A stretch of 64,000 nt of DNA from Cyanidioschyzon merolae (GCA_000091205.1 AP006502.2); one strand, 5' to 3'; shown: positions 8,233 to 63,802, counted from the stretch's first letter. Notes: generated from the sequence alone by a model not told the origin. A program made the numbers and translations.

Positions 8233-10494
8233 ATGAAACAATTCGCATTCGTGGAGCACGCTGCTTTCGTTTACCCGGCGCTTCGACACACTCCGCGTCC
8301 AGAGAAGACTTGGAGTGCTTCACTCGCGTGCGGTGCGATCCCAGGGAACACTGGTCAGGTTCCAGGCTCTCGGTTGTTGCCGCGCTGGAGACACCGTGGC
8401 CTCGGTCTGACAACCGGCGTACACAAACGCACTGCCAAATACCGATCTCACAGGGGTACAAGCTCCCTGCACTCCGCTCAAGAGAATGCGAACTCGGCAA
8501 AGCCACTAGAGCCCGTGAGCGAGCACCGGCCGCTGCGCATCATTTTGGCTGGCCCGCCGGCTTCTGGAAAGGGTACCCAAGCTGCTCTTTTAGTTGAACG
8601 GTATGGTCTCGTACATATATCTACAGGGGATATGCTTCGGGCTGCCGTCGAAGCGGGCAGTGAGCTGGGCCTCGCTGCCAAAAAGTACATGGACGCGGGG
8701 GAGCTTGTCCCCGACGAGCTTGTCATAGGGCTCATGCAACAGCGCATGGCTGCGCCTGATGTGCAGACAAGTGGTTGGCTCCTGGACGGCTTTCCTCGAA
8801 CCGCTGCGCAGATTGTAGCTATGGATGCGGCGGGTATCGAACCTGACCTGGTGATCAGCTTGGATGTGCCCTTCGAGATCCTCAAGGAGAGGGTCTCCGG
8901 TCGCCGGCTGGATCCGGAAACTGGTCGGATTTATCACCTGCGTTTCGATCCACCGCCAGCGTCGGACAAAGCCCTTTTAGATCGTCTCATCCAGCGTTCA
9001 GATGATGATGTGCAAAAGCTTGCCGTGAGGTTTGAGAACTACCGGGAGAACGTGGATGCGCTAAGGCAACGATATGGCGCGATTATGGCGGAGATCGACG
9101 GGCGTCGCTCAAAAGAGCAAGTCTTCGAAAATATTACCCGTGCAGTTGGCATGCTACGAATGCGACGTAGCTGGCAGATGAAGCGCTCGAGGCCGCCAAG
9201 AATCATCCTCCTTGGACCACCGTTATCGGGAGTGGAAAAGTACGCCGCGAGGCTCTGTAAAGATCTCGGCTGTATCCGCATCTCTACGGAACAAGTCATT
9301 CGAGATGCAGCAGCAGCAGAGCAGACGAGAACGGGTCTCATGATCCGGCAGCATTTGGAGAATAACGAGTTGGTGCCGGATCATCTGGTCGCTCATGTGC
9401 TTGGGAAGCGCCTCGCCGCCGCAGATGTGGAGCAACACGGATGGCTGCTCGACGATGTGCCGCGACGTATCATGAAAGCCAGTTCGCTACTGGATGCAGG
9501 TATCGAACCTGATCTCGTTTTGTTGCTCTATTTACCACATGAAGATCTGGAAGAACGAATGGTTCAACGTCTCTGGGACCCGGAAACCGGTCGCTACTTC
9601 CATGAGAAATATGATCCGCCCTCAGCAGATGATGCAGCCCTCAGAGCGCGATTGATTCACCGCACCGATGAGGATGAGAATCTGGCGCGATGGTTACTCG
9701 GAACGTACTACGTCGTAGAGTCAGAGCTTGAGGCTCAATACGCCGGTAGAATTGTTCAGATCGATGGGCTTGCCCCCGACGAGGAAATTTACAAGCAAAT
9801 GACAGCGGCAATAGAAGCGCGAGGGATTCCTCTGCTGTCCGACTTGACACGCGCCACCTTCGAGGACCTGGAACTCGGGAGTGCATTCATGGTGCTCTAC
9901 CGTGATCCCAAGCCCGCCACAATCCATGAAGTCCGTTGGCGAGGCAAAGGCGCATGGCCAGACCTTTTTACACGGCCACTGCTTGCGATTGGTGATCTGA
10001 TTGCGCTCTTGGTTGCGAGTAGCGTGTTGCGTCTGCTTTATGGCGGCAGACTCATCTTGGATGCGATCGTTTGGAAAACAGCTGCACCGTTTATCATTGT
10101 GTGGATCGTTGGCGCCCCGTACATAGACGCTTTCACGCAGAATGCCCTTCGAGATCGCCGGGAAGCTTTGCTATCTCTATTTCGAGCCTGGCGAGTCTGC
10201 ATGCCCTTTGCGGTCTTTGTTCGAGCGCAGTCCATGGGCTTCGCGCCACCTCTACATTTCATCGTCGCGTTGCTTCTGCTCACCTACGTATTCTTGGCTC
10301 TGTGGCGTCTCTGTTATGTCATTTTTCTACAGGGCGAGTATGATTCAGAGGGTAATAGGACGCTGAGCCTTCGGGATTTGGGGCCATGGCGTCGACCAGT
10401 CGACAGGGGGGCGCCCTATCCCGGCAGCGTTCGTTCCCAGACGCCTCCGTTGACCGACTCTTCATTGTTTCGCGAAACTCTAGGACCAACGTGA
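8233..10494 (+). CDS. Tandem adenylate kinase: one intact AK domain, one degenerate AK-like domain, then a hydrophobic C-terminal domain; the N-terminal ~100 aa resemble an organellar presequence
   Basis: Domain 1 has an intact P-loop (ILAGPPASGKGTQAALL), the NMP-binding motif (GWLLDGFPRTAAQ) and an LID region (GRRLDPETGRIYHLRFDPP). Domain 2 repeats the architecture, but its P-loop is GPPLSGVEKY (the Lys is lost) and DGFPR has become DDVPR. The C-terminal ~200 aa are strongly hydrophobic (LIALLVASSVLRLLYGG..., FIIVWIVGAPYIDAF..., FIVALLLLTYVFLALW) and probably form 3-4 TM helices. The N-terminus is rich in S, R and A. Confidence 0.8.
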   Translation: MKQFAFVEHAAFVYPALRHTPRPEKTWSASLACGAIPGNTGQVPGSRLLPRWRHRGLGLTTGVHKRTAKYRSHRGTSSLHSAQENANSAKPLEPVSEHRPLRIILAGPPASGKGTQAALLVERYGLVHISTGDMLRAAVEAGSELGLAAKKYMDAGELVPDELVIGLMQQRMAAPDVQTSGWLLDGFPRTAAQIVAMDAAGIEPDLVISLDVPFEILKERVSGRRLDPETGRIYHLRFDPPPASDKALLDRLIQRSDDDVQKLAVRFENYRENVDALRQRYGAIMAEIDGRRSKEQVFENITRAVGMLRMRRSWQMKRSRPPRIILLGPPLSGVEKYAARLCKDLGCIRISTEQVIRDAAAAEQTRTGLMIRQHLENNELVPDHLVAHVLGKRLAAADVEQHGWLLDDVPRRIMKASSLLDAGIEPDLVLLLYLPHEDLEERMVQRLWDPETGRYFHEKYDPPSADDAALRARLIHRTDEDENLARWLLGTYYVVESELEAQYAGRIVQIDGLAPDEEIYKQMTAAIEARGIPLLSDLTRATFEDLELGSAFMVLYRDPKPATIHEVRWRGKGAWPDLFTRPLLAIGDLIALLVASSVLRLLYGGRLILDAIVWKTAAPFIIVWIVGAPYIDAFTQNALRDRREALLSLFRAWRVCMPFAVFVRAQSMGFAPPLHFIVALLLLTYVFLALWRLCYVIFLQGEYDSEGNRTLSLRDLGPWRRPVDRGAPYPGSVRSQTPPLTDSSLFRETLGPT

Positions 10495-25096: not shown

Positions 25097-26053
25097 CTAC
25101 ACTTGTCTACTGCAAACGTTCTGTACCGACGGGTCCAACTTGTCCGCATCCACTTCCTCATCGCATGTTGTCGAGCCGGGCGCCGGTGCTGTCTCCACCA
25201 AATCACTTGTCTTGTGCAGCCTCGCGTTTGCGCTCGAAAACCATTCTCGCGGTCGCATTGATGCCGGCAAGTGCACCAGATCCTGCGCTGTGTCCACGTC
25301 GTTGAGCGTTACCGGTAAACATATCGTCCTGACGCCATCATTGCGCAGAGCTTCGACGGTGCGCGCGCATACATCATTCTGACTGAATACGAGGTGTGGG
25401 CCGAACGCAGCGTAGATGACTCTCGCCCAACGGGTTCGTTCTGCTGCCGCAAATGCTAAACCGAGCAAATAATAACCGCCGTCCTGCGCTGGTCCAATCA
25501 CCGCTCCATGACCGGCATGGAGCGCAGCGAATGCCTGCTGTAGCACCGCGGTATCAAGCGCCGGGCAGTCGCTTCCGATGACCACAACGTGCGCATCCCT
25601 CGATTCGTCTACCAGGCTTGTCACCTCCGTAAACGCTTGGATGAGTCGAGAGCCTAGCGGATCCTGCTTTTGATCACCAGTGCTCTGCACTTTAGAGGCT
25701 TTCTGTGGTGCGATCCGAAACGCCGGGTAACGATGACGAACCGAGTCGTCGAGCCAGCGTTCTACGCACTCCGCCTTCGCCTGCTCGCTCTCCACTGGGG
25801 TATAGTATAGGTGGACGGCGCCTGTTCCTCCAGCTTGCAGATCAAGGCCCTGCAACCAGTCATACGCCGTCGCAAGGGTGTTTTCTACCAGAGCGGCACT
25901 GATGCGCGTCGCAAGTGTCGAACCTATCTCCCGACTCAAACGCTGTTTCGTCAGGCCCGCTATCGGAGGCTTGGTGAAAACGACCAGGTGCAGCTCTTGT
26001 TCCGCACTCCACGTGGAGATTGGCTGCGCATGGTCAACATTTTCCCCTTGCAT
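25097..26053 (-). CDS. DUF2064 / TIGR04282-family (MobA-like, GT-A fold) putative glycosyltransferase, bacterial or cyanobacterial type
   Basis: VVFTKPPIAGLTKQRL matches the DUF2064 N-terminal signature (V.aK.P.pG.vKTRL). VVIGSDCPALD and GPAQDGGYYLLGL match the conserved central motifs of the family. The ORF is 318 aa. Confidence 0.6.
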   Translation of the reverse strand: MQGENVDHAQPISTWSAEQELHLVVFTKPPIAGLTKQRLSREIGSTLATRISAALVENTLATAYDWLQGLDLQAGGTGAVHLYYTPVESEQAKAECVERWLDDSVRHRYPAFRIAPQKASKVQSTGDQKQDPLGSRLIQAFTEVTSLVDESRDAHVVVIGSDCPALDTAVLQQAFAALHAGHGAVIGPAQDGGYYLLGLAFAAAERTRWARVIYAAFGPHLVFSQNDVCARTVEALRNDGVRTICLPVTLNDVDTAQDLVHLPASMRPREWFSSANARLHKTSDLVETAPAPGSTTCDEEVDADKLDPSVQNVCSRQV

Positions 26054-58887: not shown

Positions 58888-59508
58888 ATGGCTTGTTCGG
58901 CCTATACCCGCGCTTTAACCTATGTTGCTGGTGCCGCTGCTCAGCGTCCCTGGCGGGCTGCGCGCACGCACCGCGGCTCGTGGCGAACGCGTCGACAGCC
59001 GCGAGCGCACCCTCGTACATCGACCTGCTTCGCACAGCGAACTCGGTACAGGAGCGTTCGTCTGCAGGCCCCGTCTCCCGAAAATAACAAGAGCAACCGC
59101 GCGAACTCGCGACCTTCGACGAACCAAAAAGCGTCGTTGACGCCCAGCTTCCTGAGAGACGTCACTGATAGCAGCTTCTTCGCGGATGTGCCGTACCGGG
59201 AGTTCCAACAGATAGGACGGCTCTACCGCACGGTGGACGAATTTCTTGGCCGAAAGGAGAATCTCTTATTCTGGGGCTCGTGTGCGCTGCTGTTCGGAGC
59301 GTTTTCGGCTACGTCGATCTCAACGATCGTCGGTGCACTCGCCGAATGGGATCCCATAGCTGGCGCCGTCATCGTCTTTATCATGGAATGGATTGCTACA
59401 CAGTACTATCGCCGTCCTCGACCAAGCAATATCATTCGAATTTTGAATGCATACCAGGTCGGTCTGACTTTTGGGTTTATATTAGATGCGCTCAAGCTCG
59501 CTGGCTAG
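58888..59508 (+). CDS. Possible Ycf20-like (DUF565) small membrane protein with an N-terminal extension
   Basis: The C-terminal 100 aa (LLFWGSCALLFGAFSATSISTIVGALAEWDPIAGAVIVFIMEWIATQYY...NAYQVGLTFGFILDALKLAG) have two hydrophobic helices and a TxIPxxxGDW-like core reminiscent of DUF565. The N-terminus is R/A/S-rich. Family recognition is weak. Confidence 0.35.
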   Translation: MACSAYTRALTYVAGAAAQRPWRAARTHRGSWRTRRQPRAHPRTSTCFAQRTRYRSVRLQAPSPENNKSNRANSRPSTNQKASLTPSFLRDVTDSSFFADVPYREFQQIGRLYRTVDEFLGRKENLLFWGSCALLFGAFSATSISTIVGALAEWDPIAGAVIVFIMEWIATQYYRRPRPSNIIRILNAYQVGLTFGFILDALKLAG

Positions 59509-60100: not shown

Positions 60101-63100
60101 TCAGCGAGAGTCGAAAGCACCTTGCGCGGCCGCTGTGGGCTTCAACCCTGACGCCGGTGCATAGACGCTGTCAAGCATCTGCGACAGCGGCTTGCGAAGC
60201 ATCTCGTATGCATAGAACGATACGGCCACGGTAGGCCATGCTTTGAGAATATTCGGAACGAGGCCGCGATAGAGGCCACGAATACCCTCCTCCTTGAGCA
60301 CGGTTCGAAACACCTGCCGAAAGCGTCCGCCGCTGCCCTCATCTACCTGCATGCGAACACGGCACGTATCGAACGGGTAGGCAGCCATCTGGCCCAGCGT
60401 CGAGGCGATGAATCCCGACAGAATCAGGCCGCCAGCAGTCGGACGCCCGCTGCCGTCGTTGCGGCGGGGCATAATCGGACGCAGCGTCTCATAAACTGCA
60501 AAGTTAATTCCCACGTAGGGAAAGACACCAAGGGTGCTTGACAGGAGACCTCGGTACAGGCCAGGCACGCCTTGTTGCTTGCGCACTTCTCGCAGGCATT
60601 GCAGTACGCCATGGTAGCGCTCGGCAATGCCCCGATGCTGAACGGTTAAACGAGCTCGCGCCGTGTCCAGTGGATACGTTATCGTTGCTGCAACGATACC
60701 ACCGAGGCCAGCAATCACGACCGTGTCCCAGGCGGCAAAGCCAAGGGATCGTCGTGCATTCTCCGGGCGGTGTGCTTCGATATACTCCTTCGCTAGGGCA
60801 ATCGTTGCACTCTGGATGATCGTCGCCGGGAGAATTCGGAGAGCATTGGCCCCGTTGCCTCGATACATGCCCAGGATACCGTCTTGAGCAATCATGTTTC
60901 GAAATCCTCGCCATACGCTTGAATAAATGCGTTTCGATCGCGGATTCGGAGCTATGCGCTCATCCTTCAACAGCTCCGGCCGTACCTTGACCACGATACT
61001 TTCGGTTTGCATGAGCACTTTCAGACGATCGAGTGGTGCAACCAGGGTTCTCGCCAGTACACCAGCAACGGCAACACCGGCCACATGACCAATCAGGACG
61101 CCGCGGTGTGTGGGCGCTATTCCAGAAAACTGTGGCGTTCCGGCGAGCAGCGAGCTCGTCGAAAGCAGGATCTCGTCGTCGAGGGCGTTCGACGACGGCG
61201 CACGCGCAGCCTGCTGTTGCATATGTGCTTTCAGGCGATGAATATCGGCTAGGAACTTTGCTGGAAGCTTTCCCTCGCTTGCTGCGGTAAAGTCCCGAAA
61301 GTTCAGCTTTCGATCACCGCGCTTTCCAAAGAGTTGACGCAGCAGCGGTGATCCATCCTCAACCATGGCTTCAATCTCGCGATCGCCATTGGCGTACTCC
61401 AGGAACATCTCCTGGAACTCTTGCATGCCGACTTGTCCGGTGTTATCGCGATCGCATAACCGGAATATGAGCTGGCTTTCGGCATCTGGCTGATTCAGTA
61501 GTAGATCGAATCGGACGAATTCCCAAAAGTCGATCAGCGGTGCGCTTTGTTGCGAGGTCTTCCGCTGTGGCGCCGTCAGTGAGCCGCTGTTGTTGTTGCT
61601 CACCAGACGCAGCAGCAGATTGGATAGCCGACGGTAGTCCTCTGGTGATTCCTTAAAGGCATCCGCTCGCGCGAATCGCAGAAAGTCTTCGGGGGTCATA
61701 AAGTACTCATAGGGGTCGCCATCATCCGTACGCTGTGATTTTTCGCGCTTCACAGACGCGTATTCTTTGAAGATGCGCTCTAGATAGCAGGCTCCGCCTC
61801 CTAAATGAAGTCGATGGAAGGATTCGGCGCTGATGGCCCAGAGCTCTACGTCAGTGCGTGCGCGTACGGTCGCTCCACGTGGTGCATTGTACATGAGCGA
61901 GAGTTCACCGAAACTGTCGCCAGGTTGGAGCGTACCAGCAAGTTTCGGCTGGTGTCCTGGTTTGGAGATCCAACGTTCCAGCACGCCGCTTTTCACGATA
62001 TAGAAGTTATCACCCTTTTCTCCTTGTTCGAAGACGGTCTCACCGGGTCTGAAATTCACCGTGAAGAAACTCTCGAGTTCCTTCGGGCCAATACGATCGA
62101 GTCGCGAGAAGAGGAAATGCTTCTTCAATAGGGCGCGGAGCTGGCGACTCTCCGCGGCATTCTCGATGACGGATGTTTCGCCAAAGTCCAAGGCGAAACG
62201 TTCGAACGTGGCGCGATCGAGTCTCCAGAGCAAGGAGCGCTCGCGGGCTCGGATTGTGCTCGAACGCCCGGCTGCGTTGAAGAAAAGCGCAGTAAGGCCA
62301 AACGAGTTGCGCGGACCCAGTGTAGATACTTGAATGGGCTCCTGGCCGTCCTTGGCGATATAGCGATCAAGTGATCCGCTTTCGACCACGTAGAAGGCAT
62401 CGCCATAGTCTCCCTGGTGGAAGACGTAGTCTCCGGCTTCGACGATGACTGGCCGGAAGCTCTTCACGAGGTGATTGCGCGTGTACTCATCAGGCAAGGC
62501 AGCGAATATCGGGGTCCTTTTGAGGGCGTCACGGATCAGTTCACGCGATTCTCCTCGGGGATATGCGGGTTGACCGCTTGCATCCGACACGGGGCTTGCT
62601 CCTGCGGCATTCGCGTCGGTTCCGGGTACAGCCTCGTCTGCGGGATTGGTGCCAGTGGCCTCGGTTGTAGTCCTGTCTTGATTGGAGTCGGAGCCCAGCA
62701 AGCTGGCAAACCACCCTTGTTTCTGTGTTGGCAGTCGCCGAATGAATTCCTCATTCCCGAGACGAGCATTTTTCAAAAGGTGTACTCCCGGTGGGTTCGC
62801 CTGCTCTGTACTGAAATCTTTTGGTACGTAGCTATCCGCCGGCGGAAAGGAGCTCAACAGTCCTAGCCGCTGATACGCCGCCGCCACCAGTTCCGAGCAA
62901 AATACACGACTGAGATCGTTCGAGCCTTCGAAGAAGCCGCCTTTCGTAGCGGCAAGCTCGCGACGGAGAACCTCTTCAATCTTCTCCTCCGATTGCAGGA
63001 GAATGCGACGTTGCTCGAGAAGCGAGTTGCGCTGGAATGCAGTGAGTGCAGCTTCGCGCAGCTCGCGCTCTACTTCCATGCGCTGCGCACGACGACTCAC

Positions 63101-63802
63101 GAGCAAGGCATGAAGTCGCTCGCGTTCCTGCATATCGGCGGGGTGGATCACGCTTACCAGCATAGCGCCAAGATCATTCTTGTATGGCGTCTCGAGTACC
63201 TGTTCCGCAAAGTGCAGCAGCTCGGTGCGAAAGCGCTCCGTGCGAATAATAGAGAGTCTTCGGAACGCGATCTCGTTCGAGCGCGAGCGCCGTATTCTCT
63301 CGTCAAGCGGTCGCAATGTTACGCCAGAAAGGTTCGCCTCGAGAAGGTGCAACGAGCCGTCCTCTTTGCGAACAACGATGCCGACGTGGTCCCACCGAGA
63401 ATTGGACATGGCTTTCGCCACCGCACAGATTAGCGCTCCGAGCGGCGCCATGGCCAGGCAGCGCCGGTTAAAAAGCACAATGTCTCCGGCATCCAACCCT
63501 GGTGGCAGCGTCACTCGACGTTCACGTTTCAATTCCGTTCCACCAGTGGAAGAGCGCACCTGGGACTGCACCGTTTCTCCCTGGTGCTTCCGGTCCGGTG
63601 GGGCCGGCGGCACCGGCCGCTGGGGTTGCTGCTGCTGTAGCGCCGCCTCCCCTGAGACCCGTTTTTCCGACAGCGCAGCTTCCGGCTTTTCTATTGCCCT
63701 GCCATTCTCTTTCACTGTGGAAGAGTCCGTAGAAACCTTCCGAGTCTCGGCTGACTGCCCGTTACCCATAGAGTCCGCGAAAGACGGTCGCTTGCGGAAC
63801 AA
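60101..63802 (-). CDS. Multidomain protein: N-myristoylation-like MGNGQS, permuted NlpC/P60 (YiiX-like) domain, two cyclic-nucleotide-binding domains, an EF-hand, and a three-repeat mitochondrial carrier (SLC25) domain
   Basis: N-terminus ...MGNGQSAETRK. The YiiX-like pattern is GDIVLFNRR...SNSRWDHVGIVV plus a downstream FCSELVAAAYQRLGL, giving His-then-Cys order. cNMP domain 1 is FAALPDEY...VIVEAGDYVFHQGDYGDAFYVVESGSLD...FGLTALFFNAAGRSSTIRARE. cNMP domain 2 is FSRLDRIGPKELESFF...GETVFEQGEKGDNFYIVKSGVLE...GDSFGELSLMYNAPRGATVRAR. The EF-hand loop is DRDNTGQVGMQEF. The carrier repeats are PLDRLKVLMQ, PLDTARARLTVQ and PFDTCRVRMQV, with six hydrophobic helices. The ORF is continuous over 1233 aa. 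Confidence 0.85.
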   Translation of the reverse strand: MFRKRPSFADSMGNGQSAETRKVSTDSSTVKENGRAIEKPEAALSEKRVSGEAALQQQQPQRPVPPAPPDRKHQGETVQSQVRSSTGGTELKRERRVTLPPGLDAGDIVLFNRRCLAMAPLGALICAVAKAMSNSRWDHVGIVVRKEDGSLHLLEANLSGVTLRPLDERIRRSRSNEIAFRRLSIIRTERFRTELLHFAEQVLETPYKNDLGAMLVSVIHPADMQERERLHALLVSRRAQRMEVERELREAALTAFQRNSLLEQRRILLQSEEKIEEVLRRELAATKGGFFEGSNDLSRVFCSELVAAAYQRLGLLSSFPPADSYVPKDFSTEQANPPGVHLLKNARLGNEEFIRRLPTQKQGWFASLLGSDSNQDRTTTEATGTNPADEAVPGTDANAAGASPVSDASGQPAYPRGESRELIRDALKRTPIFAALPDEYTRNHLVKSFRPVIVEAGDYVFHQGDYGDAFYVVESGSLDRYIAKDGQEPIQVSTLGPRNSFGLTALFFNAAGRSSTIRARERSLLWRLDRATFERFALDFGETSVIENAAESRQLRALLKKHFLFSRLDRIGPKELESFFTVNFRPGETVFEQGEKGDNFYIVKSGVLERWISKPGHQPKLAGTLQPGDSFGELSLMYNAPRGATVRARTDVELWAISAESFHRLHLGGGACYLERIFKEYASVKREKSQRTDDGDPYEYFMTPEDFLRFARADAFKESPEDYRRLSNLLLRLVSNNNSGSLTAPQRKTSQQSAPLIDFWEFVRFDLLLNQPDAESQLIFRLCDRDNTGQVGMQEFQEMFLEYANGDREIEAMVEDGSPLLRQLFGKRGDRKLNFRDFTAASEGKLPAKFLADIHRLKAHMQQQAARAPSSNALDDEILLSTSSLLAGTPQFSGIAPTHRGVLIGHVAGVAVAGVLARTLVAPLDRLKVLMQTESIVVKVRPELLKDERIAPNPRSKRIYSSVWRGFRNMIAQDGILGMYRGNGANALRILPATIIQSATIALAKEYIEAHRPENARRSLGFAAWDTVVIAGLGGIVAATITYPLDTARARLTVQHRGIAERYHGVLQCLREVRKQQGVPGLYRGLLSSTLGVFPYVGINFAVYETLRPIMPRRNDGSGRPTAGGLILSGFIASTLGQMAAYPFDTCRVRMQVDEGSGGRFRQVFRTVLKEEGIRGLYRGLVPNILKAWPTVAVSFYAYEMLRKPLSQMLDSVYAPASGLKPTAAAQGAFDSR

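What the first reader, a model, noticed from the sequence alone, without database searches (positions are those of the whole stretch)
60101..63802. Unusual fusion: permuted NlpC/P60 (YiiX-like) + 2x cNMP-binding + EF-hand + mitochondrial carrier in one 1233-aa ORF
One uninterrupted minus-strand ORF encodes four parts. First, an N-terminus with an MGNGQS myristoylation-like motif and a His-before-Cys (WDHVGIV ... FCSELV) arrangement typical of permuted papain-fold lipid or amide hydrolases. Second, two complete cyclic-nucleotide-binding beta-barrels, each with the G-E-L-A/R-A-T style phosphate-binding cassette. Third, a canonical EF-hand loop (DRDNTGQVGMQEF). Fourth, a full three-repeat SLC25 carrier (PLDRLKVLMQ, PLDTARARLTVQ, PFDTCRVRMQV). 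Ca-regulated carriers (SCaMC, Aralar) are well known, but I am not aware of carriers fused to cNMP sensors plus a putative hydrolase. This architecture would put a mitochondrial transporter directly under cAMP/cGMP and Ca control. It is either a novel signalling-transport module or a lineage-specific gene fusion.
Basis: partly seen in the sequence, partly recalled or inferred. Interest (0 to 1): 0.75.

Follow-up and report, generated by a model that had tools for sequence, protein, structure and literature searches.

The report
Hydrolase–cNMP–calcium sensor fused to carrier
This is one real red-algal gene that joins a lipid-type cysteine hydrolase, two cyclic-nucleotide-binding domains, a MICU-like calcium sensor and a nucleotide-type mitochondrial carrier; the design is conserved in many algae and oomycetes, yet I found no paper that has studied it.

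Summary
The window is Cyanidioschyzon merolae 10D nuclear DNA. The ORF matches deposited protein BAM83499.1 / XP_005539535.1 (1222 aa), which starts at the ATG at 63769, not the TTG at 63802.

- A YaeF/YiiX-type permuted cysteine hydrolase, with invariant His128 and Cys291, conserved Glu144 and Tyr196, and an inserted helical hairpin.
- CNB-A, whose phosphate-binding cassette lacks the ribose-binding Glu in all red algae examined.
- CNB-B, with a canonical cassette.
- An EF-hand lobe whose closest solved relatives are MICU and Aralar, not the calmodulin-like SCaMC domain. It has one canonical Ca2+ loop.
- An intact SLC25 carrier with adenine-nucleotide-type contact points (R / G-V-x-x-Y / K).

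It is not a lineage-specific accident. The architecture recurs in at least nine red-algal genera, Chlorokybus, Mesostigma, oomycetes and Nannochloropsis, and in part in Chrysoparadoxa and Euglena. Some of these sequences come from single transcripts. The sensors decay differently in different lineages, while the hydrolase–carrier pair persists.

The most likely function is a nucleotide or CoA-type carrier gated by Ca2+ and cNMP, with an attached and probably co-regulated acyl hydrolase. Localisation, ligands and substrates are untested. I found no paper describing it. Verdict: a new variant of the Ca2+-regulated carrier theme, of moderate to high interest.

The parts
60101..63769 (-). Complete CDS (1222 codons plus the stop codon at 60101-60103); start ATG at 63769
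   Evidence: ORF. (100% identity to the 1222-aa protein P0001). (BAM83499.1 / XP_005539535.1 / M1VD17). (ATG GGT AAC GGG CAG TCA at 63769).
63521..63769 (-). N-terminal tail, aa 1-83, low complexity and predicted disordered; carries the MGNGQS N-myristoylation-like motif
   Evidence: pLDDT is below 50 for the modelled part. The MG-x-x-x-S motif is present only in P0001-P0003.
62696..63520 (-). YaeF/YiiX-type permuted NlpC/P60 (Peptidase_C92) domain, aa 84-358; catalytic His128, Glu144, Tyr196, Cys291
62948..63139 (-). Antiparallel helical hairpin of about 64 residues (aa 211-274), inserted between the catalytic Tyr and Cys
62180..62572 (-). CNB-A, aa ~400-530; phosphate-binding cassette aa 489-508 is degenerate (FGLTALFFNAAGRSSTIRA: Glu replaced by Leu, one-residue insertion, Arg kept)
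   Evidence: Pfam cNMP_binding, first of two stretches. Alignment to Plasmodium PKG CNB-A. The Glu is absent in all red-algal and Chlorokybus members and present only in Phytophthora; Lagenidium has Asp.
61754..62179 (-). CNB-B, aa 531-672; canonical phosphate-binding cassette aa 619-637 (FGELSLMYNAPRGATVRA)
   Evidence: Pfam best stretch. E about 1e-34 to PKA RI-alpha and PKG. F-G-E and R are invariant in the family.
61190..61753 (-). MICU/Aralar-like EF-hand lobe, aa 673-860: one canonical Ca2+ loop (aa 773-784, DRDNTGQVGMQE; window 61418-61453), a degenerate partner loop (FGKRGDRKLNFRDF) and a conserved helix (aa ~837-856)
   Evidence: phmmer: MICU3 1.7e-6, Aralar1 2.8e-5. Family profile: 9k6m 7.5e-14, Aralar2 3.5e-10, Aralar1 6.2e-10. 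9k6m is Dictyostelium MICU. Loop conservation. Helices in the model. L-P-x-x-F-x-x-D is nearly invariant.
60140..61117 (-). SLC25 carrier domain, aa ~885-1210: three repeats, six predicted transmembrane helices
   Evidence: Mito_carr x3, E 1.1e-62. ADP/ATP carrier 4c9g, E 1.2e-29. pLDDT is mostly 90-96. P-x-[DE]-x-x-[KR] is present on H1, H3 and H5. Contact points are R / G-V-x-x-Y / K.

Best explanation
This is a single, real, intron-less nuclear gene of Cyanidioschyzon merolae. It encodes a five-module membrane protein: a YiiX-type permuted cysteine hydrolase, a degenerate CNB-A, a canonical CNB-B, a MICU/Aralar-like EF-hand lobe and an SLC25 carrier.

Shown here:
- The five modules and their order.
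- Conservation of the hydrolase's His/Glu/Tyr/Cys set.
- A canonical phosphate-binding cassette in CNB-B and a canonical Ca2+ loop in the EF lobe.
- An intact carrier with the matrix salt-bridge motifs and adenine-nucleotide-type contact points.
- Wide phylogenetic conservation of the whole arrangement.

Inferred:
- As in the two known Ca2+-regulated carrier families (ATP-Mg/Pi carriers and aspartate/glutamate carriers), the roughly 880-residue N-terminal part lies on the cytosol/intermembrane-space side of the carrier.
- There, Ca2+ binding to the EF loop and cAMP (or cGMP) binding to CNB-B change its conformation.
- These changes open or block the cytoplasmic side of a carrier that moves an adenine-nucleotide-like substrate (adenine nucleotides, CoA or a related compound).
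- The hydrolase probably acts on a fatty-acyl amide, ester or thioester at the same membrane. It is either a second output of the same sensors or is functionally coupled to transport.
For: One gene:
- The ORF is uninterrupted.
- It is 100% identical to a deposited 1222-aa protein on a 1.62-Mb contig.
- The neighbouring genes are also single ORFs.
- Transcriptome-derived homologues from Eucheuma and Gracilaria carry C92 + cNMP + Mito_carr on one complete ORF.

Modules:
- Pfam.
- The tandem CNB region aligns end to end with PKA-R and PKG tandem CNB-A/B.
- The catalytic residues match those defined in PMC3142127 and are conserved.
- The EF lobe matches MICU and Aralar. From general knowledge, both act as Ca2+ sensors on the intermembrane-space side.

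Carrier:
- All three P-x-[DE]-x-x-[KR] motifs are present.
- [YF][DE]xx[KR] is present on H4 and H6.
- The contact points R, G-V-x-x-Y and K correspond to R88, G192/I193/Y196 and R287 of the ADP/ATP carrier as described in PMC7611774.
- The nearest named carriers are APC/SCaMC, ADNT1 and CoAc.

Precedent for the mechanism: APC regulation by an EF-hand domain plus an amphipathic helix placed just before the carrier (PMC6283063). Here a conserved helix sits between the EF lobe and the carrier.

Selection on the whole arrangement: it is present in red algae, Chlorokybus, Mesostigma, oomycetes and Nannochloropsis.
Against: - No experiment of any kind was found on this protein or its orthologues.
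- Localisation is unknown. No presequence is evident, and the N-terminus carries a cytosolic-type myristoylation motif in this clade only.
- CNB-A lacks the ribose-binding Glu.
- I could not establish whether C. merolae makes cAMP or cGMP.
- The EF-hand scores below the Pfam cut-off in this species, and the partner loop is degenerate.
- The cytoplasmic network motif on H2 is missing.
- The relative placement of domains in the model is unreliable (pTM 0.51), so no gating contact is demonstrated.
- Sensors are lost or degenerate in some lineages while the hydrolase and carrier stay. This argues that sensing is an accessory rather than the core function.
Confidence: 0.55

Rival explanations
1. 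Enzyme-centred reading. The conserved functional core is the hydrolase-carrier pair. The carrier either anchors the YiiX-type acyl hydrolase to the membrane or supplies or removes its substrate. The CNB and EF sensors tune the enzyme rather than transport, as in neuropathy target esterase, where CNB domains precede a lipid hydrolase.
For: - C92 + carrier proteins without CNB or EF exist: Chrysoparadoxa P0220 and P0224. Their carriers fall inside the family clade, and they keep His/Glu/Tyr/Cys.
- Nannochloropsis and the oomycetes have degenerate EF and/or CNB-A but an intact triad.
- The same C92 subtype is fused to membrane-lipid-binding C2 domains in Stenamoeba P0057 and in P0059.
- YiiX binds a fatty acid in its active-site pocket (PMC3142127).
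- P0060 is a CNB + acyltransferase + patatin protein, so CNB-lipid-enzyme fusions exist.
Against: - The carrier keeps every mechanistic motif needed for transport, which a mere anchor would not need.
- Two family representatives, P0198 and P0207, have lost the catalytic His, Cys and Tyr but keep the CNB, EF and carrier modules. The carrier-sensor part can therefore stand without the enzyme.
- In the Euglena transcript only the Cys-bearing stretch of C92 aligns, so that protein is probably incomplete and uninformative.
Confidence: 0.2
2. Not a mitochondrial protein. The carrier sits in another membrane (plastid envelope, peroxisome or an endomembrane), as some SLC25 members do, with the large N-terminal region in the cytosol and held at the membrane by N-myristoylation.
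For: - The MGNGQS motif sits at the true start.
- No presequence-like N-terminus is evident. An 880-residue, multi-domain N-terminal extension is far larger than in the known Ca2+-regulated carriers.
- A review title and abstract (PMC7408384) note increasing examples of non-mitochondrial carriers in plants.
Against: - The EF lobe's closest relatives are MICU and Aralar. From general knowledge, both face the intermembrane space.
- The myristoylation motif is confined to one small clade.
- Carriers normally lack presequences anyway (general knowledge).
Confidence: 0.2
3. The CNB domains are not cyclic-nucleotide sensors here. They bind another ligand, or act only as a structural or dimerisation scaffold, so the protein is regulated by Ca2+ alone or not at all.
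For: - CNB-A has lost the conserved Glu throughout the red algae and has an insertion in C. merolae.
- Trypanosome PKA regulatory subunits in the PDB list are 'cAMP-independent' and bind nucleosides (entries 6hyi, 6hyq, 6flo). CNB folds can therefore switch ligand.
- I found no evidence for or against cyclases in C. merolae.
Against: - The CNB-B cassette is invariant (F-G-E-L...P-R-x-[AS]-T) across about 50 homologues. This is the pattern of cAMP- and cGMP-binding sites in PKA-R and PKG.
- Such conservation is hard to explain without a phosphate-ribose ligand.
Confidence: 0.2
4. Annotation or assembly artefact: two or more neighbouring genes read through as one ORF.
For: Some homologous gene models elsewhere are clearly merged: Porphyridium P0021 (1989 aa, with unrelated domains) and P0296 (carrier + RIIa + CNB).
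Against: - There is no stop codon in 3.7 kb.
- The same order and spacing occur in more than 50 proteins from independent genomes and transcriptomes.
- The linkers are short.
- The deposited protein is identical.
Confidence: 0.02

Closest known systems
Mitochondrial ATP-Mg/Pi carriers (APC / SCaMC; SLC25A23/24/25/41)
   Same: - An N-terminal Ca2+-sensing EF-hand region, then a helix, then a nucleotide-type SLC25 carrier in one chain.
- The carrier shares G-[IVM]-x-P-Y at contact point II and Lys at contact point III.
- They are among the nearest named stand-alone carriers, at 30-37% identity.
- This is the name given by database annotators.
   Different: - APC has four calmodulin-like EF-hands (PMC6283063). 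This protein has one canonical loop in a MICU/Aralar-like lobe, and no SCaMC N-domain appears in the 60 PDB rows shown for the profile search.
- Contact point I is Arg rather than Lys, and H5 reads P-x-D rather than P-L-Q.
- The carrier domains form a separate clade in a rough NJ tree.
- APC has no CNB domains and no hydrolase.
Aspartate/glutamate carriers (Aralar / citrin; SLC25A12/13) and MICU1-3
   Same: The EF-hand lobe is homologous over about 90-155 residues: YMTxxDF..., then the canonical loop, then the FGxxGxxxL pseudo-loop. Profile E-values are 7.5e-14 to Dictyostelium MICU and about 1e-10 to Aralar1/2.
   Different: - Only one lobe is present, whereas MICU has two lobes and Aralar has eight EF-hands (PMC7611774).
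- The carrier is nucleotide-type, not amino-acid-type.
- No C-terminal amphipathic helix is evident.
- MICU is a soluble uniporter regulator, not a carrier.
[quoted passage not shown]
   Same: - Permuted order, with His before Cys.
- The Cys/His/Glu triad plus Tyr.
   Different: - It is eukaryotic.
- It carries an inserted helical hairpin of about 64 residues between Tyr and Cys.
- It is embedded in a multi-domain membrane protein.
- The substrate is unknown here, and unknown for the bacterial enzymes too. A fatty-acyl amidase role was proposed in PMC3142127.
PKA regulatory subunits / PKG tandem CNB-A/B modules
   Same: - Two consecutive CNB domains align end to end, with E about 1e-34. Foldseek gives TMt up to 0.67 to yeast Bcy1.
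- The CNB-B cassette is canonical.
   Different: - There is no inhibitor or pseudosubstrate segment, no RIIa dimerisation domain and no kinase partner.
- CNB-A lacks the cassette Glu.
- The output is a transporter and/or a hydrolase, not a kinase.
Neuropathy target esterase (PNPLA6/7)-type CNB + lipid hydrolase proteins (recalled from general knowledge; P0060 has a related architecture)
   Same: Cyclic-nucleotide-binding domains sit in the same chain as a membrane-associated lipid hydrolase.
   Different: - The hydrolase fold differs: patatin versus permuted papain.
- The domain order differs, and there is no carrier.
- The resemblance is one of design only and was not tested here.

Membership tests
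SLC25 mitochondrial carrier family | Three tandem repeats of about 100 residues, each with two transmembrane helices | tested here: met
   Pfam Mito_carr x3, E 1.1e-62. The high-confidence model shows six long helices. E 1.2e-29 to the yeast ADP/ATP carrier.
SLC25 mitochondrial carrier family | P-x-[DE]-x-x-[KR] matrix network motif on H1, H3 and H5 | tested here: met
   PLDRLK, PLDTAR and PFDTCR are present and conserved across the family.
SLC25 mitochondrial carrier family | [YF][DE]xx[KR] cytoplasmic network motif on H2, H4 and H6 | tested here: inconclusive
   YETLR on H4 and YEMLR on H6 are present. H2 has no such motif, and that region is variable in the family.
SLC25 mitochondrial carrier family | Location in the mitochondrial inner membrane, and transport activity | not testable with these tools
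   No localisation or transport data were found.
ATP-Mg/Pi carrier (APC / SCaMC) | [quoted passage not shown] | tested here: not met
   There is one canonical loop. The best PDB relatives of the region are MICU and Aralar. Calmodulins match only the single loop, and no SCaMC N-domain appears in the 60 rows shown.
ATP-Mg/Pi carrier (APC / SCaMC) | Amphipathic helix between the regulatory and carrier domains that acts as a locking pin | tested here: inconclusive
   A conserved helix (aa ~837-856, L-P-x-x-F-x-x-D) lies between the EF lobe and the carrier. No contact or function is shown.
ATP-Mg/Pi carrier (APC / SCaMC) | Carrier domain orthologous to APC carriers | tested here: not met
   The NJ tree puts the family in its own clade, apart from APC/SCaMC (no bootstrap). 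Contact point I is Arg versus Lys, and H5 is P-x-D versus P-L-Q.
Aspartate/glutamate carrier (Aralar / citrin) | Eight-EF-hand N-domain, amino-acid-type carrier and C-terminal amphipathic helix | tested here: not met
   Only about 90 profile positions of the Aralar N-domain are matched. Contact point II is G-V, the nucleotide type. The C-terminal tail is short and disordered.
YaeF/YiiX permuted NlpC/P60 (Peptidase_C92) | Circularly permuted papain-like fold, with the catalytic His before the Cys | tested here: met
   [not shown]
YaeF/YiiX permuted NlpC/P60 (Peptidase_C92) | Cys/His/acidic triad plus the conserved Tyr | tested here: met
   His and Cys align to the catalytic His and Cys of 3kw0, identified from the residue numbers in PMC3142127. 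His, Cys and Tyr are invariant and Glu nearly invariant in 50-54 homologues. The assignment of Glu and Tyr rests on position and conservation, not on checked geometry.
YaeF/YiiX permuted NlpC/P60 (Peptidase_C92) | Hydrolase or acyl-transfer activity on a lipid-like substrate | not testable with these tools
   Activity is unknown even for the bacterial prototypes. Only a bound fatty acid in YiiX is reported.
Cyclic-nucleotide-binding domain (PKA-R / PKG type) | Beta-barrel with a phosphate-binding cassette containing the conserved Glu and Arg | tested here: met
   For CNB-B: FGELSLMYNAPRGATVRA, invariant in the family and aligned to the PKG and PKA cassettes. For CNB-A this feature is not met in C. 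merolae: Glu is replaced by Leu, with an insertion.
Cyclic-nucleotide-binding domain (PKA-R / PKG type) | Actual binding of cAMP or cGMP | not testable with these tools
   No data exist, and the presence of cyclases in C. merolae was not established.
MICU family | Two EF-hand lobes (canonical EF1 and EF4) in a soluble regulator of the calcium uniporter | tested here: not met
   Only the N-lobe equivalent is present: DdMICU residues 53-199 of 371 are matched. The module is part of a carrier polypeptide. This is homology of a module, not family membership.

The most novel reading that the evidence does not exclude
The hydrolase and the carrier form a single-chain enzyme-transporter unit. The YiiX-type cysteine hydrolase would cleave a fatty-acyl conjugate at the membrane, for example an acyl-CoA, an N-acyl amide or a phospholipid. 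The attached CoA/adenine-nucleotide-type carrier would then move the nucleotide-bearing product or cofactor across the membrane. Ca2+ and a cyclic nucleotide would set the rate. This would be a previously unrecognised, second-messenger-controlled link between lipid or acyl metabolism and organellar nucleotide or CoA pools, ancestral to red algae, basal streptophytes and stramenopiles. This is conjecture. It is supported only by the persistent co-occurrence of the two modules when the sensors are lost, by the ADNT1/CoAc-like carrier signature and by the fatty-acid pocket of YiiX.
Probability: 0.15. Interest if true: 0.85.

Novelty: new variant of a known kind. Interest (0 to 1): 0.62.

Why it matters
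Only two kinds of SLC25 carrier are described in the reviews read here as having built-in regulatory domains, the ATP-Mg/Pi carriers and the aspartate/glutamate carriers. Both sense only Ca2+.

This family adds three things:
- A cyclic-nucleotide sensor.
- A different, MICU-type Ca2+ module.
- An enzyme, all in one chain.

It is conserved across several major algal and oomycete lineages. If the sensors do gate transport, it would be, to my knowledge, the first carrier of this family controlled directly by a cyclic nucleotide. It would also give a direct handle on how cAMP/cGMP and Ca2+ signals reach organellar metabolism in organisms where such signalling is poorly understood.

C. merolae is, from general knowledge, genetically tractable through homologous recombination, and it has little gene redundancy, so these questions can be tested. 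The oomycete orthologues (Phytophthora spp.) add applied interest. From general knowledge, the family is absent from animals, fungi and land plants; this was not tested here.

Tried and rejected
- The TTG start at 63802 is rejected in favour of the ATG at 63769.
- I began by assuming the EF region would be SCaMC-like, as annotated. This is rejected after the PDB searches.
- Sequence search of the hydrolase region against the PDB gave only a marginal hit (3kw0, E 0.81). A structure-based search was needed.
- Foldseek against afdb50 was not available.
- Model coordinates are not exposed. I could not check active-site geometry, inter-domain contacts or PAE. At pTM 0.51, I draw no conclusion about domain packing.
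- Foldseek of the whole model against the PDB returned only tandem-CNB proteins among the rows shown.
- Ten literature searches, by architecture, Pfam names, accession numbers, annotation phrase and cNMP enzymes in Cyanidioschyzon, found nothing on this protein. The Phytophthora zoospore membrane-proteome paper mentions the terms in unrelated contexts.
- P0296 (carrier + RIIa + CNB) and P0021 (Porphyridium, 1989 aa) were considered as further architectures. I set them aside as probable merged gene models.
- P0196 and P0202 (CNB + EF + carrier, no hydrolase) were first taken for truncated family members. Their carriers group with APC/SCaMC and their EF-hands are calmodulin-like, so they are probably an independent fusion.
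- One coordinate/frame error was corrected. Two paper-reading runs failed on term syntax.
- dN/dS was not attempted. The nearest relative is only 79% identical in protein, so synonymous sites are likely saturated.

Full report
**What is in the sequence**

The ORF listing returns an uninterrupted minus-strand ORF at 60101..63802, 1233 aa from a TTG. The homologue search finds a 100% identical, 1222-aa protein of Cyanidioschyzon merolae strain 10D on a 1.62-Mb contig. It is deposited as BAM83499.1 / XP_005539535.1 / UniProt M1VD17 and named 'similar to mitochondrial calcium-dependent solute carrier'.

The rest of the window is a run of ordinary eukaryotic genes, each readable as a single ORF: adenylate kinase, HSP70, the succinate dehydrogenase flavoprotein, eIF2A, a protein kinase, UbiA and others. 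This fits an almost intron-free genome. I number residues from the ATG.

**Domain content**

Pfam finds:
- Mito_carr x3: E 1.1e-62.
- cNMP_binding x2: E 4.6e-44.
- Peptidase_C92: 34.2 bits against a cut-off of 27, covering only profile positions 17-97 of 166.
- One EF-hand: 19.8 bits, below the cut-off of 25.4.

An AlphaFold2 model of residues 23-1222, built with 50 homologues, has mean pLDDT 75.9. The folded domains are confident, and the segments at aa 1-83, about 359-397 and about 858-888 are disordered. The pTM is only 0.51, so I draw no conclusion about how the domains pack.

**The N-terminal enzyme**

Xu et al. 2011 (PMC3142127) define this family by four features: a circular permutation, a Cys/His/Glu triad, a conserved Tyr and a hydrophobic pocket that holds a fatty acid in YiiX. 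They proposed a fatty-acyl amidase or a related lipid-directed activity.

Here the phmmer alignment to 3kw0 places His128 and Cys291 on the chain residues that I equate with the paper's catalytic His49 and Cys154, by a +19 numbering offset that I computed by hand. His128, Tyr196 and Cys291 are invariant, and Glu144 is nearly invariant, in 50-54 homologues. The enzyme therefore looks active. Its substrate is unknown.

**The cyclic-nucleotide module**

Residues about 395-672 align end to end with the tandem CNB-A/CNB-B of PKA regulatory subunits and PKG, with E about 1e-34. Foldseek gives TMt up to 0.67 to yeast Bcy1.

The two cassettes differ:
- CNB-B reads SFGELSLMYNAPRGATVRA, against Plasmodium PKG YFGERALLYDEPRSATIIA. 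It is canonical, and F-G-E and R are invariant in the family.
- CNB-A reads SFGLTALFFNAAGRSSTIRA, against PKG SFGEAALIHNT-QRSATIMA. The ribose-binding Glu is replaced, one residue is inserted and the Arg is kept.

The Glu is missing in every red-algal and Chlorokybus sequence. It is present in Phytophthora (FGES...PRRAT), and Lagenidium has Asp at that position.

Most members have P-R-A-A-T in CNB-B. From memory that is the PKA (cAMP) pattern rather than the PKG R-T pattern, but I did not test selectivity.

**The calcium module**

The loop DRDNTGQVGMQE (aa 773-784) fits the canonical EF-hand pattern, and D-x-[ND]-N-[ST]-G-x-[IV]-x-x-x-[ED] is conserved across the red algae.

Searching residues 673-882 against PDB sequences gave an unexpected answer. 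The best matches are MICU3 (1.7e-6), 9k6m (1.4e-5), Aralar1 (2.8e-5) and MICU1/2.

A profile of 14 family members raises these matches:
- 9k6m: 7.5e-14, over 155 profile positions.
- Aralar2: 3.5e-10.
- Aralar1: 6.2e-10.

Calmodulins match only the single loop, and the solved SCaMC/APC regulatory domain does not appear in the 60 rows shown. 9k6m is the MICU of Dictyostelium (PMC12095637).

The region is therefore one MICU/Aralar-type lobe. It comprises a leading helix (YMTPEDF), a helix-loop-helix with an insertion, the canonical EF-hand and a degenerate partner (LFGKRGDRKLNFRDF). A conserved helix follows (aa ~837-856; L-P-x-x-F-x-x-D nearly invariant), then a disordered linker into the carrier.

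From general knowledge, both relatives act as Ca2+ sensors on the intermembrane-space side. That is circumstantial support for a mitochondrial location with the N-terminal region facing that side.

**The carrier**

All three matrix-network motifs are present and conserved (PLDRLK, PLDTAR, PFDTCR). The cytoplasmic-network motif is present on H4 (YETLR) and H6 (YEMLR) but absent on H2.

The SLC25 review (PMC7611774) assigns substrate class to contact point II and gives the ADP/ATP carrier residues as R88 (I), G192/I193/Y196 (II) and R287 (III). The family has R on H2, G-V-F-P-Y on H4 and K on H6. This is the adenine-nucleotide pattern.

Named carriers retrieved with the carrier domain alone are APC/SCaMC, ADNT1, CoAc1/2 and TPC, at 25-37% identity. 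Side by side:
- The family shares Arg at contact point I and P-x-D-x-x-R-R on H5 with ADNT1/CoAc.
- APC has Lys at contact point I and P-L-Q on H5.

In a neighbour-joining tree (no support values, so only indicative), the family's carriers form their own clade, apart from both groups. I conclude that the substrate is nucleotide-like (adenine nucleotides, CoA or a relative) and cannot be named more closely.

**Distribution**

The full or nearly full architecture occurs in:
- Red algae: Cyanidiococcus, Galdieria, Porphyridium, Rhodosorus, Gracilariopsis, Gracilaria, Eucheuma and Rhodochaete (the last is a partial sequence).
- Basal streptophytes: Chlorokybus and Mesostigma.
- Oomycetes: Lagenidium and several Phytophthora species.
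- The eustigmatophyte Nannochloropsis/Microchloropsis.
- Many unnamed environmental assemblies.

The exhaustive search of 1.84 billion representatives gives 383 proteins at E ≤ 1e-30. Most of these match single modules.

The Eucheuma and Gracilaria entries are complete ORFs from transcriptome assemblies. They are direct evidence that the modules sit on one mRNA in those species.

A module-by-module survey shows lineage-specific decay of the sensors:
- Oomycetes keep both CNB cassettes but have a degenerate EF loop, and Trp at contact point I.
- Nannochloropsis has lost the CNB-A cassette and the EF loop.
- Chrysoparadoxa (P0220) and P0224 have only the hydrolase plus the carrier.
- Two representatives (P0198, P0207) keep the sensors and carrier but have lost the catalytic His, Cys and Tyr.
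- In the Euglena transcript only the Cys-bearing stretch of the hydrolase aligns, so it is probably 5'-incomplete.

The MG-x-x-x-S motif is confined to the three closest relatives.

Separately, P0196 and P0202 combine two CNB domains with calmodulin-like EF-hands and an APC-like carrier. This is probably an independent fusion of the same idea.

**How it most likely works**

Shown: the modules, their order, the conserved functional residues, the intact carrier and conservation of the whole.

Inferred: the design follows the known Ca2+-regulated carriers. In APC, the EF-hand domain captures an amphipathic helix when Ca2+ is bound, and releases it to plug the carrier when Ca2+ is absent (PMC6283063; PMC7611774). 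Here an EF lobe and a conserved helix sit in the same position, immediately before the carrier, and a PKA-R-like tandem CNB lies immediately before them.

I therefore propose the following:
- The N-terminal region lies on the cytosol/intermembrane-space side.
- Ca2+ at the EF loop and a cyclic nucleotide at CNB-B jointly shift this region between a state that blocks the carrier's cytoplasmic gate and a state that frees it.
- The hydrolase, probably lipid- or acyl-directed, is either a second output of the same switch or works together with transport.

My confidence in this combined mechanism is about 0.55. My confidence that this is one real gene with these five modules is above 0.95.

**Rivals**

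- An enzyme-centred reading, in which the hydrolase-carrier pair is the core and the sensors are accessory. It is favoured by the CNB-less C92-carrier proteins and by C92-C2 fusions elsewhere. It is opposed by the fully conserved transport motifs and by pseudo-enzyme members.
- A non-mitochondrial location. It is favoured by the myristoylation-like start and the very large N-terminal region. It is opposed by the MICU/Aralar kinship of the EF lobe.
- CNB domains that do not bind cyclic nucleotides. It is favoured by the degenerate CNB-A and by the precedent of nucleoside-binding trypanosome PKA-R in the PDB list. It is opposed by the invariant CNB-B cassette.
- A gene-model artefact. This is effectively excluded.

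**Comparison with what is known, and novelty**

The protein works most like an APC/SCaMC or Aralar-type regulated carrier, but it is a member of neither. The defining four calmodulin-like EF-hands of APC, and the eight-EF-hand domain and amino-acid-type carrier of Aralar, were tested and not met.

It is a bona fide member of three families: SLC25, the YaeF/YiiX C92 family and, for CNB-B, the CNB family.

Ten searches of the held literature found no description of the architecture or of the gene. The searches used the architecture, the Pfam names, accession numbers and the annotation phrase (among others). The library does not hold most subscription-journal papers, so this is absence in what I could search, not proof.

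The gene is already in public databases under an uninformative and partly misleading name. I class it as a new variant of a known kind: a regulated SLC25 carrier with a new set of regulatory and enzymatic modules.

**Verdict**

The finding is real and was correctly read in outline. It is also entirely uncharacterised. Interest: 0.62.

Noticed in passing
window 8233-10494 (+): A 753-aa ORF with two adenylate kinase domains (PF00406, E 1.2e-64, two stretches) followed by a C-terminal DUF3054 membrane-type domain. This is an unusual fusion in its own right.
   Followed up: no
window 58888-59508 (+): A 206-aa ORF with a DUF565 domain (E 1.7e-12), convergent with the carrier gene and ending about 600 bp from its stop codon.
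   Followed up: no
window 25097-26053 (-): A 318-aa ORF matching DUF2064, described as 'conserved in bacteria', in a red-algal nuclear window. It may be of organellar or horizontal origin.
   Followed up: no
proteins P0196 and P0202 (environmental assemblies; no locus fetched): Proteins of 754 and 766 aa with two CNB domains, strong calmodulin-like EF-hands and a carrier that groups with APC/SCaMC rather than with this family. This is probably an independent fusion of cyclic-nucleotide sensors to a Ca2+-regulated carrier.
   Followed up: partly
proteins P0198 and P0207: Family members that keep the CNB, EF and carrier modules but have lost the hydrolase's catalytic His, Cys and Tyr. They are pseudo-enzyme versions.
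   Followed up: partly
proteins P0220 (Chrysoparadoxa australica CAM9545302.1) and P0224: Proteins of about 590 aa with only the YiiX-type hydrolase (catalytic residues intact) and the carrier. They have no CNB or EF modules.
   Followed up: partly
proteins P0057 (Stenamoeba stenopodia) and P0059: The same subtype of YiiX-like hydrolase (WDHV...FCSELVAAAYQ) is fused to C2 domains, and in P0059 also to a RasGEF domain, in unrelated eukaryotes. This hints at a membrane-lipid context for the enzyme.
   Followed up: no
proteins P0021 (Porphyridium purpureum, 1989 aa) and P0296 (597 aa): These are likely merged gene models. P0021 adds GTP cyclohydrolase II and 'uracil catabolism protein 4' domains in front of the architecture. 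P0296 joins a carrier to an RIIa + CNB x2 PKA regulatory subunit.
   Followed up: no
oomycete orthologues P0051 (Lagenidium) and P0183 (Phytophthora): CNB-A is canonical in Phytophthora (FGES...PRRAT); Lagenidium has Asp in place of the Glu. In both, the EF loop is degenerate and contact point I of the carrier is Trp instead of Arg. This suggests a different regulatory logic, and possibly a different substrate, in oomycetes.
   Followed up: partly
window 60504-60914 (-), 61805-62131 (+), 62417-62866 (+), 62993-63433 (+): ORFs of 108-149 aa in other frames or on the opposite strand, inside the carrier gene. They are most likely chance ORFs in GC-rich coding DNA.
   Followed up: no
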